Shown here in pieces: positions 14,289 through 44,133 of a stretch of DNA of 64,000 nt. The notes beneath the pieces were generated by a model, which saw only the letters and a program-made list of their open reading frames with translations, was not told the DNA's origin and made no database searches. The stretch lies in NCBI RefSeq assembly GCF_009914755.1, contig NC_060931.1, one strand, 5' to 3'. Position 1 is the first letter of the stretch. Every line of letters starts with the position of its first letter. Source of the stretch: the human T2T-CHM13v2.0 reference genome, Homo sapiens. Position numbers and translations under genes: made by a program.

Positions 14289-14857
14289 CTCTGCAATTGA
14301 TACCATCTCCATAATACCCAAAGGGGCAGCGTCCACATTGGAAGTGACCATCTGAGCTTGGCACACAGGAAACACCAAGAAAACAAGGCTAGCCAGCACA
14401 AGGTGATATTTTGGTTGATCCAAACTTTTCTGGCAAAATAGCAATTGCTTTTGTAATAGATGACACAAACTCATCTTCATACTGTGTGTAACCTTGGGAA
14501 GACCTGCTAATTTGAGAATATACCCTCCTGTCTCTGTTTGGATGGTGTTCTGGATATCATCATTTGCTTTGCCATGGGTGTTGTTTGGGTTCCTGCTTAA
14601 AGAGCTACTGTTCTTCACAGAAACTTCCAACTCACCCAGACTGAGATTTGTACTGAGACTATGATCCACATGTTCAATATCTGATATCTGATGGGAAATA
14701 GGCTTTACTGAATTATCCATTTGGGCTGTAATTAATTTCAGTGATGAGCGGGAGATGTTGTTAGTTGTGCTCAGTAACTTTTTGATAGTAGTGGGAGTAG
14801 GAGTAAATCTTGTACTAATTAGTGAATATTCTGTTGATGGTGGCTGAAAATTTATAG
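14289..14857 (-). pseudogene. Disabled VWDE exon (569 nt): Ser/Thr-rich linker plus EGF-like domain, with frameshift and in-frame TAG
   Basis: acceptor gtgtag|CT after a T-tract, in phase with exon 19; 3' part reads [37 protein letters not shown] in a different frame; donor AG|gtagta. Confidence 0.85.
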
Positions 14858-20467: not shown

Positions 20468-20650
<183 letters not shown>

Positions 20651-22347: not shown

Positions 22348-23245
22348 ATGCAAATGCAAATTCTACACACCCATTCACTAAAATCAAACACTTAAAACTT
22401 AATGAATCTCTTTCTCTCATCATGCTAAAACCAATCACTGGCCAAGTACAATCAACTTGCTTCTTTATTATCCCTTTCATCATTACCTCATCTTCATCTT
22501 AGGTTAATATATCTTCATCTTTTTTCCTATATATTTGAAGTATTTCTTAACTCTTCTTCCCACCTTCAGATTTACACAGTTCCTTACCCACAAGTGGTCC
22601 ATCCTACACACTCCTCCTTAAACTATCTCACATGTAAACTGTATTGTCTTTCTCTCCCACTTCAAAATTTTAAGAGAGTCTCCATGGTTTTTATGTGGTC
22701 TTGCTACTGCTTACCTCTCTAGCTCCAACTCTTGTAGCAGCTCCCCTTTCTTCCTATATTCCAGGCACACTGAACTATTCACAGTGGCTGCCCAAGGAGT
22801 GCTGTGATGTTGCCTGCTTCTGTCCCTTTGCTCCTGCTGTTGGTTTTGCCTGGAATGCCTTTCTCTCTCTTGATCTATCAGATTCAGTTCTCATGTGTCT
22901 AGTATAGTCTAGTCACTTCCTTTTTAAAAAATTTTTCATTATTTCTCCAGGTAGATAAGATTCCCTGTGTAGTATTCCTACTAGCCCTTTTGTGATTTCT
23001 ATCAAAAGACACAGAACACTTTATTATACTCTGTAATTACTAGTCATATTCCCTGCTGTTACACTCTACCTATTAAGTCAGAAAACATGTCTTATATATT
23101 TTTGCATCCTTTGTATCTAGTTCAATGCATGACACTTAATGCATTTACACTAAATAAATACATGAGTCAAAAACAGAAACTATGCTATTAAAAAATAATT
23201 AACTGCAGCAAAAAAAATCTCATAGCAGAAAATAGGAACTTTTCC

Positions 23246-23383
23246 CATGGCATATTTTTCCATCCCCATAAAATCCTTCTGGACATGAACCACAATGATA
23301 GGAACCAAAGGTATTCAGGCATTCTACTCCCTCAAAGCAAGGCTTGGAGTCACACTCATCAACATCTTCCTGGCAATTTTTGC
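23246..23383 (-). pseudogene. Cryptic/silenced VWDE exon (138 nt) encoding a calcium-binding EGF domain; donor GG instead of GT
   Basis: acceptor tatacag|GC; translates GKNCQEDVDECDSKPCFEGVECLNTFGSYHCGSCPEGFYGDGKICH with no stop; phase 1-1; ends CATG|ggaaaag. Confidence 0.88.
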
Positions 23384-24044
23384 CTGTATAAAATATAGAT
23401 CAAGAGCTCAGATTATTTAATTTGAAAAACATCGTATGTCCAATTGTCTTATTATATAACTTCTACTTTTTATGTCTGTCCTTCTAACCCCAAAAGAGCT
23501 GCTATGCATTATGAGGACAGAAGTATGCTGTTTTTAAAACTTACTGTATAATCAAATATAAAGTCACTAATTACATTCAATTTAATATTAAACCAGACCT
23601 TTCAAGTACATACGATTTCTTTTTTGTAAATAAGATGAGTTAAGAACTCCATTAATAGTTAAGGCAAAAAGCTTCATATTACAGCAGTAATTTGAACTTT
23701 GTTTAAAAAGTCAGTAATTTTTAAAAGTTATTTAGGATGGTTGTCTGTTTAGCTTAAGGACAAATTGTTTAGTCTAGTTATAAAAATTCATGAAAGTTGT
23801 TTGTGTTAGGAAAGTCAGTCCGTCCTTAATCAAAGTTTTTGAGTTGATGTGGTGCTCTTTGAAATGCTTAACAACTCATCTGAACGAGTAAATTCAGTCA
23901 TACGTGGATGGTAGCCTTTATTATACTAAAATTTATGAGGCAATCAACATTTGAATTCTTTCAAATAGAGTCTACAGTGAAGTAGAAAAGAGATCTACAT
24001 TCATAGTTCCCAATGATAAAATTTTTGTTTTAAAATGCTGAAGA

Positions 24045-24980: not shown

Positions 24981-25226
<246 letters not shown>

Positions 25227-43893: not shown

Positions 43894-44133
<240 letters not shown>

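What the first reader, a model, noticed from the sequence alone, without database searches (positions are those of the whole stretch)
23246..23383. Hidden, frame-intact calcium-binding EGF exon silenced by a GG donor
Seen: intron 18 contains a 138-nt segment with a good acceptor (tatacag|). It translates with no stop as GKNCQEDVDECDSKPCFEGVECLNTFGSYHCGSCPEGFYGDGKICH and is too short for the ORF track. It is phase 1-1, so it fits in frame between exons 18 and 19. Its first Cys would complete the unfinished EGF at the end of exon 18. At the expected donor the sequence is CATG|GGAAAAG rather than |GT. Known: D-V-D-E-C and C-x-N-x4-Y-x-C are the cbEGF calcium-binding and beta-hydroxylation consensus. 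The C-F-x-G-V-x-C...CG-x-CP-x-G-x-x-G-D-G pattern is the thrombospondin/cubilin-type EGF. Inference: an ancestral VWDE exon lost by a single +2 T>G change, recently enough that the frame is undamaged. A weak in-frame GT lies 6 nt further on (AAA A|gttcct, ending the exon at 23240) and could give low-level rescue.
Basis: partly seen in the sequence, partly recalled or inferred. Interest (0 to 1): 0.82.

Follow-up and report, generated by a model that had tools for sequence, protein, structure and literature searches.

The report
Ancestral VWDE EGF exon, donor lost
An intron of the human VWDE gene holds an intact, very old exon for a calcium-binding EGF domain that fish, birds and other mammals still carry, but in the human reference it has no usable end signal and is left out of the main messenger RNAs.

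Summary
Window 23383..23246 (minus strand) is a 138-nt, phase 1-1 open segment behind a working acceptor. It encodes the missing sixth Cys of the EGF at the end of exon 18, then a complete calcium-binding EGF (Pfam EGF_CA 33 bits, cut-off 27). GG stands where a donor is needed.

It is a true ancestral VWDE exon. Orthologous sequence follows exon 18 in 11 gene models of 10 species, from sturgeon and teleosts to chimpanzee. Camel and reindeer models splice exactly at the human GG position. The human copy is as similar to orthologues as exons 17 and 18.

It is not hidden. RefSeq NR_144534.2 uses the same acceptor and runs 669 nt to the next strong donor (22715), with a TGA after eight extra codons.

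The claimed T>G change and its date could not be tested, because no primate DNA was available. The +6 GT scores below all 28 annotated donors.

There are other signs of erosion:
- An unannotated 569-nt linker+EGF pseudo-exon in intron 19 carries a frameshift and a TAG.
- A Cys of the exon-18 EGF is Tyr in the human sequence.
- A common stop-gain allele is published.

Verdict: ordinary lineage-specific exon loss, moderately interesting.

The parts
23246..23383 (-). 138-nt, phase 1-1 ancestral VWDE exon. It encodes Cys6 of EGF2 plus a complete calcium-binding EGF, and it is absent from the three RefSeq NM transcripts.
23384..23385 (-). Acceptor AG behind a pyrimidine-rich tract: 12 of 18 pyrimidines, within the range 9-16 of the annotated acceptors. 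RefSeq NR_144534.2 uses it.
23244..23245 (-). GG at the position where camel and reindeer models splice. It is not a usable 5' splice site.
23238..23239 (-). In-frame GT six bases further on (AAA|GTTCCT). Its crude donor score of -1.8 is below all 28 annotated donors.
22715..23383 (-). 669-nt exon of RefSeq NR_144534.2: the same acceptor, extended to the donor GAG|GTAAGC, which scores 9.7 and is the best of 36 GT sites. No masked repeat lies inside it.
23219..23221 (-). TGA ending the read-through (…CH-GKSSYFLL*), 504 nt upstream of the exon junction at 22715.
23020..23025 (-). AATAAA followed by a GT-rich stretch. This may be an intronic polyadenylation signal for a short isoform; not tested.
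25007..25226 (-). Annotated exon 18: EGF1 plus EGF2 without its sixth Cys. In human, codon 25056-25058 is Tyr1232 where the orthologues have the third Cys.
20473..20613 (-). Annotated exon 19: a 141-nt Cys-free linker with no Pfam match, joined directly to exon 18 in the annotated mRNAs.
14289..14857 (-). Unannotated 569-nt pseudo-exon in intron 19, encoding an S/T-rich linker plus a thrombospondin-type EGF. The seal orthologue is 570 nt. The acceptor tgtgtag| and donor AGAG|gtagta look intact. A 1-nt deletion lies near 14519-14521 and an in-frame TAG at 14389-14391.

Best explanation
Window 23246-23383 (minus strand) is the human copy of an old, conserved VWDE cassette exon. It encodes the last cysteine of the second EGF of exon 18 and one whole calcium-binding EGF.

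In this reference the two bases after the exon read GG, at the place where other mammals' gene models splice. The spliceosome cannot use GG as a 5' splice site, so the 138-nt exon cannot be defined.

Two outcomes follow:
- The main mRNAs skip the exon and join exon 18 to the Cys-free exon 19. The second EGF is then left without its sixth Cys.
- When the still-good acceptor is used, the exon runs on 531 nt to the next strong donor at 22715. A TGA comes after eight extra codons, 504 nt before the next junction. RefSeq files that transcript as non-coding, and it is probably degraded by nonsense-mediated decay.

Shown here: the sequence, the domain, the presence of the orthologous exon in other species, the splice position in camel and reindeer models, and the RefSeq exon.

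Inferred: that a T-to-G change at +2 is the cause, that it happened late in the primate lineage, and that the long transcript is degraded.

The loss fits a wider erosion of the EGF region of human VWDE: a second, larger ancestral exon in intron 19 is broken, a Cys in exon 18 is Tyr, and a common stop-gain allele is in print.
For: Sequence and phase. Domain: EGF_CA at 33 bits against a cut-off of 27.

Orthologues:
- tblastn of 57 of the 63 stored proteins against the window gave non-exonic hits at only two places. At 23223-23390, 14 queries hit: 11 orthologous models of 10 species and 3 cross-hits of another EGF.
- Camel joins CH| to exon 19, reindeer joins CH| to the large linker exon, and sturgeon continues into a linker.
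- In an alignment of 10 sequences, 17 of 45 columns are invariant. These include 6 of the 7 Cys, D6, D8, E9, N23 and Y28. The seventh Cys (C44) is present in all 9 sequences that reach that column.
- Identity of the human copy is no lower than that of flanking coding exons 17 and 18, except camel exon 18. Dog 84% against 77/78; camel 84% against 77/86; turtle 71% against 64/62; bird 76% against 61/59; sturgeon 70% against 55.

Transcripts: three NM transcripts skip the exon, and NR_144534.2 carries 22715-23383. The donor at 22715 is the best of 36 GT sites, and the +6 GT scores below all 28 annotated donors.

Erosion elsewhere in the gene:
- The pseudo-exon 14289-14857 has a frameshift and a TAG.
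- Tyr1232 stands where chimpanzee, orang-utan, Rhinopithecus and all other models seen have Cys.
- VWDE p.Arg385Ter is listed with a loss-of-function allele frequency of 0.167 (PMC11576641, table passage).
Against: - No DNA of any other vertebrate could be read, so GT in outgroups is inferred only from where two automatic gene models splice.
- The camel model is poor downstream. Its tail looks like a frame-shifted reading.
- The protein searches could not reach proteins longer than 1344 aa. Full-length orthologues were never seen, and the sample leans towards partial and truncated models.
- 16 models join exon 18 to something else: Pongo, Daubentonia, Rhinopithecus, Diceros, Mirounga, Scotinomys, Ovis, Chelonia, Apteryx, Varanus, Latimeria and 5 teleosts. 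The exon may therefore be alternative in many species, or those models may be copied from human.
- Dog, turtle, bird and chimpanzee models end by read-through just after the exon. That could mean a conserved short isoform rather than a loss.
- The high conservation of the human copy fits continuing selection as well as a recent loss.
- Only RefSeq transcripts were seen. No RNA-seq and no population data were available.
Confidence: 0.62

Rival explanations
1. The exon is still in use as the last coding exon of a short VWDE isoform (about 1302 aa: VWD region plus three EGFs, ending GKSSYFLL), or as a regulated unproductive-splicing exon. On this reading the lack of a donor is part of how that isoform is made and is not a defect.
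For: - The reading frame and all key residues are intact, and conservation equals that of the coding neighbours.
- Models ending by read-through right after the exon exist for chimpanzee (1300 and 1302 aa), dog (1266), turtle (1310) and flycatcher (1215).
- AATAAA with a GT-rich stretch lies about 195 nt after the TGA.
- The acceptor is used in a RefSeq transcript.
Against: - RefSeq files the only transcript that carries it as non-coding and spliced onward, not as terminal.
- The truncated models may all be projections of one human or chimpanzee template that run on to the next stop.
- Their tails after Gly-Lys differ in every species, so no conserved C-terminal peptide exists.
- Camel, reindeer, sturgeon and mouse models splice the exon onward.
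Confidence: 0.2
2. The exon was always a minor alternative cassette in mammals. The exon 18-19 junction is the main form everywhere, so the human GG removes only a rare isoform.
For: 7 mammalian models skip it: Pongo, Daubentonia, Rhinopithecus, Diceros, Mirounga, Scotinomys and Ovis.
Against: - Skipping leaves the second EGF without its sixth Cys in every species, which is an odd main form.
- Two turtles differ: Chrysemys has the exon and the Chelonia model lacks it. Absence therefore depends on the model.
- Several of the skipping models carry human-style isoform names and may be lifted from the human annotation.
- Conservation from sturgeon to mammals is stronger than that of exons 17 and 18.
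Confidence: 0.1
3. The GG is an assembly error or a rare allele of this one reference, and most human genomes have GT and include the exon.
For: None from the calls. It cannot be excluded, because only one human assembly was readable.
Against: - RefSeq's curated transcripts, built from human cDNA, either skip the exon or read through the site for 531 nt.
- The chimpanzee models read through with the same eight codons.
Confidence: 0.05
4. It is a chance open frame that only looks like an EGF.
For: A 46-codon open frame alone is not rare in an intron: (61/64)^46 is about 0.11 by my own arithmetic.
Against: - The Pfam score is above the curated cut-off.
- Identity to VWDE orthologues is 70-98% at the matching place in the gene.
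- The phase matches both neighbouring exons.
Confidence: 0.01

Closest known systems
RefSeq NR_144534.2 (VWDE non-coding transcript variant), exon 22715-23383
   Same: It has the same acceptor at 23383 and contains the whole 138-nt segment.
   Different: The annotated exon is 669 nt long, ends at a different donor, and is not marked as coding. Nothing in the annotation says that its first 138 nt are an ancestral EGF exon.
Calcium-binding EGF domains (Pfam PF07645) of Notch1, thrombospondins, fibrillin-1 and factor IX
   Same: - Six-Cys pattern, D-x-D-E-C start and C-x-N-x4-Y-x-C (the motifs are recalled; the residues were read).
- Pfam score above the cut-off.
- PDB sequence matches to Notch1 at E 3.3e-16 for the whole chain, fibrillin-1 at 4.2e-06 and THBS2 at 2.5e-04.
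- The best human paralogue hit is THBS4, at 50% identity.
   Different: It is a member by sequence only. Calcium binding and fold were not shown: the predicted model has pLDDT 64.6, and Foldseek found 0 matches at E <= 0.001.
Lineage-specific loss of a conserved exon through a splice-site change (a pseudo-exon inside a live gene)
   Same: The exon is conserved in outgroups, the frame is intact, there is no usable donor, and the main mRNAs skip it.
   Different: The ancestral GT was not read in any outgroup genome, so the causal change is inferred. The acceptor is still active and feeds a read-through transcript.
VWDE as a polymorphic pseudogene (p.Arg385Ter, rs17165936; PMC11576641, table passage seen)
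   Same: It concerns the same gene and points to weak constraint in humans.
   Different: It is a different lesion, in a different exon, that segregates in the population. The paper does not mention the EGF exon (one occurrence of VWDE).
Poison exons and NMD-coupled alternative splicing
   Same: Inclusion brings a stop 504 nt before the next junction. By the 50-55 nt rule (recalled), that marks a transcript for decay.
   Different: Classical poison exons are conserved as such. Here the stop lies in the unconserved-looking extension, and the tails after Gly-Lys differ between species. NMD was not tested.

Membership tests
Calcium-binding EGF domain (Pfam EGF_CA, PF07645) | Score at or above the Pfam gathering cut-off | tested here: met
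   33 bits against a cut-off of 27, E 7.3e-08, covering profile positions 1-43 of 43.
Calcium-binding EGF domain (Pfam EGF_CA, PF07645) | Six cysteines in EGF spacing, plus D/N-x-D/N-E/Q-C and C-x-D/N-x4-Y/F-x-C (consensus recalled) | tested here: met
   DVDEC...C...C-LNTFGSYH-C-GS-C...C was read. In 10 aligned sequences D6, D8, E9, N23, Y28 and six Cys are invariant. C44 is present in all 9 sequences that reach it.
Calcium-binding EGF domain (Pfam EGF_CA, PF07645) | EGF fold | tested here: inconclusive
   The single-sequence model has pLDDT 64.6 and one central hairpin. Foldseek against the PDB gave 0 matches at E <= 0.001. The top rows are all EGF domains, but with probability <= 0.41.
Calcium-binding EGF domain (Pfam EGF_CA, PF07645) | Binds calcium | not testable with these tools
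   This needs expressed protein.
Orthologous exon of VWDE | Same place in the gene (directly after the CxCPPELxG end of exon 18) and the same phase | tested here: met
   Camel, dog, chimpanzee (2 models), mouse, turtle and flycatcher models continue from ...PPEL.G into KNC/KTC/RDC.... The phase is 1-1 in human. The junction residues V (camel) and A (reindeer) both need a final G, as in human.
Orthologous exon of VWDE | Sequence identity in line with neighbouring orthologous exons | tested here: met
   Identity is 70-98%, equal to or above exons 17 and 18 in every comparison except camel exon 18 (86% against 84%). Two teleost models give 51-53%.
Exon lost by a 5' splice-site mutation | No usable donor at the ancestral exon end in this genome | tested here: met
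   GG stands at 23245-23244. All 28 annotated donors of the window are GT.
Exon lost by a 5' splice-site mutation | Outgroup genomes have GT at the same position | not testable with these tools
   No vertebrate genome other than this one can be read. The only evidence is indirect: the camel and reindeer models splice there.
Exon lost by a 5' splice-site mutation | Exon absent from productive transcripts | tested here: met
   It is absent from NM_001135924.3, NM_001346972.2 and NM_001346973.2, and present only in NR_144534.2. This covers RefSeq alone; no RNA-seq was available.
Poison exon / NMD-coupled splicing | Premature stop more than 50-55 nt upstream of a downstream exon junction (rule recalled) | tested here: met
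   The TGA at 23221-23219 lies 504 nt before the junction at 22715.
Poison exon / NMD-coupled splicing | Transcript rises when NMD is blocked; the element is conserved as a regulator | not testable with these tools
   No expression data and no outgroup DNA were available.
Thrombospondin-type EGF | Closest relatives are thrombospondin EGF repeats | tested here: inconclusive
   In the human genome THBS4 is the best non-self hit (E 1.2e-6, 50%). THBS2 and CUBN are also listed, alongside FAT1, NOTCH1-3, CRB1 and CRB2. In the PDB, Notch1 ranks first and THBS2 comes at E 2.5e-04.

The most novel reading that the evidence does not exclude
Human VWDE, a gene required for limb regeneration in axolotl (PMC7390686, abstract and passages), may be in stepwise decay in the human or ape lineage. 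The signs are:
- The cbEGF exon has lost its donor.
- A 569-nt linker+EGF exon has become a pseudo-exon.
- A structural Cys in exon 18 is Tyr.
- A stop-gain allele is common.

The still-intact cbEGF exon would then survive only because it serves as the coding end of a short isoform, or as an unproductive-splicing switch that sets VWDE level.
Probability: 0.2. Interest if true: 0.55.

Novelty: new member of a known kind. Interest (0 to 1): 0.4.

Why it matters
VWDE is almost unstudied in mammals, but it is needed for appendage regeneration in axolotl (PMC7390686).

If the reading is right, the human protein is not the ancestral one:
- It lacks one calcium-binding EGF.
- It lacks a mucin-like linker and a thrombospondin-type EGF.
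- It carries a second EGF with only four of its six cysteines.

That matters in three ways:
- For anyone modelling or expressing the human protein.
- For interpreting variants in this part of the gene.
- For comparing human VWDE with that of regenerating species.

It also gives a clean case for dating an exon loss in primates, once the outgroup DNA is read. It does not reveal a new mechanism.

Tried and rejected
**Reaching full-length orthologues.** The protein search takes only candidates of 0.55-1.75 times the query length. I therefore stepped up three times:
- Exon 12 as query (321 aa): 20 hits among 132 candidates, with 1146 left out.
- A bird partial model as query (P0006, region 350-507): 37 hits among 51 candidates, with 57 left out.
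- The camel model as query (P0025, region 270-445): 23 hits among 38 candidates, with 51 left out.

The ceiling stayed at 1344 aa, so no full-length VWDE was seen.

**Models not examined at the junction.** My pattern anchor failed for 10 models: P0029, P0032, P0034, P0036-P0042. I did not read their junctions by eye. The tblastn later showed the exon in P0034 and P0038. Among the rest it gave only a weak hit by P0039 to the second EGF in the intron-19 pseudo-exon, and no hit to the finding's exon.

**Structure.** The 45-residue peptide folded alone gave a low-confidence model, and the fold search reached no significant match. I do not use it.

**My first reading of the second EGF** (a 141-nt exon with acceptor ttttgccag|) was wrong. 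Homology runs on upstream, and the real unit is the 569-nt exon starting at 14857.

**Repeat origin** of the 531-nt extension is rejected: no masked repeat lies in 22715-23383.

**Literature.** Four searches were run:
- VWDE alone: 162 papers, 30 listed.
- VWDE + exon + splice: 23 papers, 15 listed.
- NR_144534 / rs17165936 / ENSMUST00000203074: 3 papers.
- VWDE + pseudogen: 11 papers.

No listed paper describes this exon, and NR_144534 occurs in none. I read only passages:
- PMC7390686.
- PMC11576641.
- PMC11990869.
- PMC13621357. It reports a skipped-exon event in VWDE without naming the exon; its supplements are closed and might name it.

**Recalled, not from any call:** the cbEGF consensus, the splice-site consensus and the rarity of non-GT donors, the 50-55 nt NMD rule, the C1-x-S-x-P/A-C2 O-glucose motif, and my guess that the chimpanzee and orang-utan 'isoform 3' entries are projections of human transcripts.

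Full report
**What is there**

VWDE lies on the minus strand. Behind tatacag|, bases 23383 to 23246 form a 138-nt segment with no stop. After a split first codon it reads KNCQEDVDECDSKPCFEGVECLNTFGSYHCGSCPEGFYGDGKICH.

The segment fits in frame between its neighbours:
- Exon 18 (25007-25226) ends with one spare g, and exon 19 (20473-20613) starts with two bases.
- The segment is therefore phase 1-1.
- It would insert Gly plus 45 residues and keep the same Val junction codon.

The two bases after the segment are GG (23245-23244). A GT follows six bases later.

Pfam places the peptide in EGF_CA at 33 bits against a cut-off of 27 (E 7.3e-08). PDB sequence matches are to cbEGFs of Notch1, fibrillin-1, factor IX and thrombospondin-2. 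In the human genome the best hit outside VWDE is THBS4, followed by FAT1, NOTCH1, CRB1, NOTCH2, CUBN, NOTCH3, THBS2 and CRB2.

**The unfinished EGF**

Exon 18 encodes one full EGF and a second that stops at ...CDCPPELK. In the annotated mRNAs a 46-residue stretch with no Cys and no Pfam match follows. The segment's KNC puts a Cys eight residues after the fifth Cys, which is the usual EGF spacing (recalled).

**It is annotated, though not as coding**

The three NM transcripts join 25007 to 20613. NR_144534.2 has an extra exon 22715-23383. It uses the same acceptor but runs 531 nt further to GAG|GTAAGC.

I built a crude matrix from the 28 annotated donors of the window, whose scores range from 1.5 to 12.6 with median 9.3:
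- The donor at 22715 scores 9.7, the best of 36 GT sites in the stretch.

The read-through adds GKSSYFLL and a TGA at 23221-23219, 504 nt before the junction. No masked repeat lies in the exon. An AATAAA lies at 23025-23020.

**Orthologues**

No vertebrate genome other than this one can be read, so I used database proteins. The length window of the search forced three steps and never reached proteins above 1344 aa. The sample is therefore made of partial and truncated models.

A tblastn of 57 of the 63 stored proteins against the window gave non-exonic hits at only two places. Six non-VWDE hits were dropped first: P0043, P0048, P0057, P0059, P0061 and P0063.

At 23223-23390, 14 queries hit:
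- 11 are the orthologous domain, in 10 species: chimpanzee (2 models), dog, camel, reindeer, mouse, painted turtle, flycatcher, sturgeon, Danionella and Liparis.
- 3 are cross-hits of another EGF: P0004, P0054 and P0022.

How the models continue after the exon:
- Camel continues CH|VETQ... into exon 19.
- Reindeer continues CH|AINV... into a large linker exon.
- Sturgeon runs into a long S/T/P-rich linker.
- The mouse model leaves the exon early, after ...CPEGFQ.

Both the V and the A junction codons need a final G, as in human. Those models therefore splice exactly where human has GG.

In an alignment of 10 sequences, 17 of 45 columns are invariant. They include six Cys, D6, D8, E9, N23, Y28, S12 and P14.

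Identity of the human copy to each orthologue is at least that of exons 17 and 18, except for camel exon 18:

| Species | Hidden exon | Exon 17 | Exon 18 |
|---|---|---|---|
| Dog | 84% | 77% | 78% |
| Camel | 84% | 77% | 86% |
| Mouse (37 aa) | 76% | 66% | 78% |
| Turtle | 71% | 64% | 62% |
| Bird | 76% | 61% | 59% |
| Sturgeon | 70% | 55% | (48%, misaligned) |

**Results that cut the other way**

16 models join exon 18 to something else: Pongo, Daubentonia, Rhinopithecus, Diceros, Mirounga, Scotinomys, Ovis, Chelonia, Apteryx, Varanus, Latimeria and five teleosts.
- Fifteen bird partial models and Sigmodon stop at exon 18.
- Two turtles disagree, so absence depends on the model.
- Several of the skipping models look lifted from the human annotation. 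That is my guess.

Dog, turtle, flycatcher and chimpanzee models end by read-through just after the exon:
- All begin Gly-Lys and then differ: GKRLDFLP, GKITFPCNTAITLH, GKII, GKSSYFLL.
- Gly-Lys fits GGT AAA, a plausible donor, as well as the human GGG AAA. Protein therefore cannot tell T from G.
- These models may be projections of one truncated template, or they may show a real short isoform.

**Wider picture**

The second non-exonic place is 14289-14857 in intron 19. This 569-nt unit is 60-78% identical to a 570-nt coding exon of the seal model. It is also matched by the Scotinomys, reindeer, green turtle, sturgeon and opossum models. It encodes an S/T-rich linker and a thrombospondin-type EGF.

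In human:
- Its acceptor (tgtgtag|) and donor (AGAG|gtagta) look intact.
- One base is missing near 14519-14521.
- The EGF part holds a TAG at 14391-14389.

RefSeq does not annotate this unit.

In exon 18, human has Tyr1232 (25058-25056) where chimpanzee, orang-utan, Rhinopithecus and every other model seen have the third Cys of the second EGF.

A published table lists VWDE p.Arg385Ter (rs17165936) with a loss-of-function allele frequency of 0.167 and homozygote frequency of 0.033 (PMC11576641, passage). Codon 385 in the window is CGA.

Leigh et al. note that the number of EGF domains varies among species and that transcripts are poorly characterised (PMC7390686, passages).

**Reading**

The most likely account is an ancestral cassette exon that can no longer be defined in human because its donor reads GG. 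It is skipped in the main mRNAs. When its acceptor is used, it produces a long read-through exon with an early stop. I give this 0.62.

The main rival, at 0.2, is that the exon still works as the coding end of a short isoform or as an unproductive-splicing switch. That would also explain why it is so well kept.

The cause (T to G) and the date are inferred, not shown.

**Comparison and novelty**

The domain is an ordinary cbEGF. The process is an ordinary lineage-specific exon loss. The exon's acceptor and sequence are already inside a RefSeq non-coding transcript and in chimpanzee database proteins.

I could not find in print that it is an ancestral coding exon, or that human VWDE has lost two EGFs and a linker. 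I rate it a new member of a known kind, with interest 0.4.

Noticed in passing
window 14289-14857 (-): An unannotated 569-nt pseudo-exon lies in VWDE intron 19. It encodes an S/T-rich linker plus a thrombospondin-type EGF, and it is coding in the seal, Scotinomys, reindeer, turtle, sturgeon and opossum models. In human the splice sites look intact, but there is a 1-nt deletion near 14519-14521 and a TAG at 14389-14391. The frame set by the acceptor is open for all 189 codons.
   Followed up: yes
window 25056-25058 (-), exon 18: Human has Tyr1232 at the third Cys of the second EGF. Chimpanzee, orang-utan, Rhinopithecus and all other models seen have Cys there. Together with the skipped exon, this EGF keeps four of its six Cys in the annotated human protein. 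Whether the change is fixed in humans was not checked.
   Followed up: partly
window 20473-20613 (-), exon 19: Annotated exon 19 is a Cys-free 47-codon linker with no Pfam match. The camel, rhinoceros and primate models have it. The seal, Scotinomys and reindeer models go straight to the large linker exon instead, so it may be a mammalian alternative or a late addition.
   Followed up: no
window 23020-23025 (-): AATAAA followed by a GT-rich stretch lies about 195 nt after the read-through stop. It may be an intronic polyadenylation site.
   Followed up: no
VWDE codon 385 (exon at window 43912-44129): A paper's table lists p.Arg385Ter (rs17165936) as a common loss-of-function allele, which makes VWDE a polymorphic pseudogene (PMC11576641). 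The window has CGA at codon 385.
   Followed up: partly
P0047 (mouse mCG51455), residues 509-545: The mouse model leaves the cbEGF exon early (…CPEGFQ) and joins an exon-20-like EGF, skipping exon 19 and the linker exon. This is either a different donor in mouse or a model artefact.
   Followed up: no
P0005-P0019 (bird partial models) and P0025 (camel): Fifteen bird models end ...PPELQGK plus a few odd residues, which looks like reading into the intron after exon 18. The camel model's tail looks like a frame-shifted reading of the EGF repeats. These automatic models need care.
   Followed up: no
window 23246-23381 (-), residues C10-D-S-K-P-C15: C-x-S-x-P-C between the first two Cys of the cbEGF matches the O-glucose consensus (recalled). 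S12 and P14 are invariant in the 10 aligned sequences.
   Followed up: no
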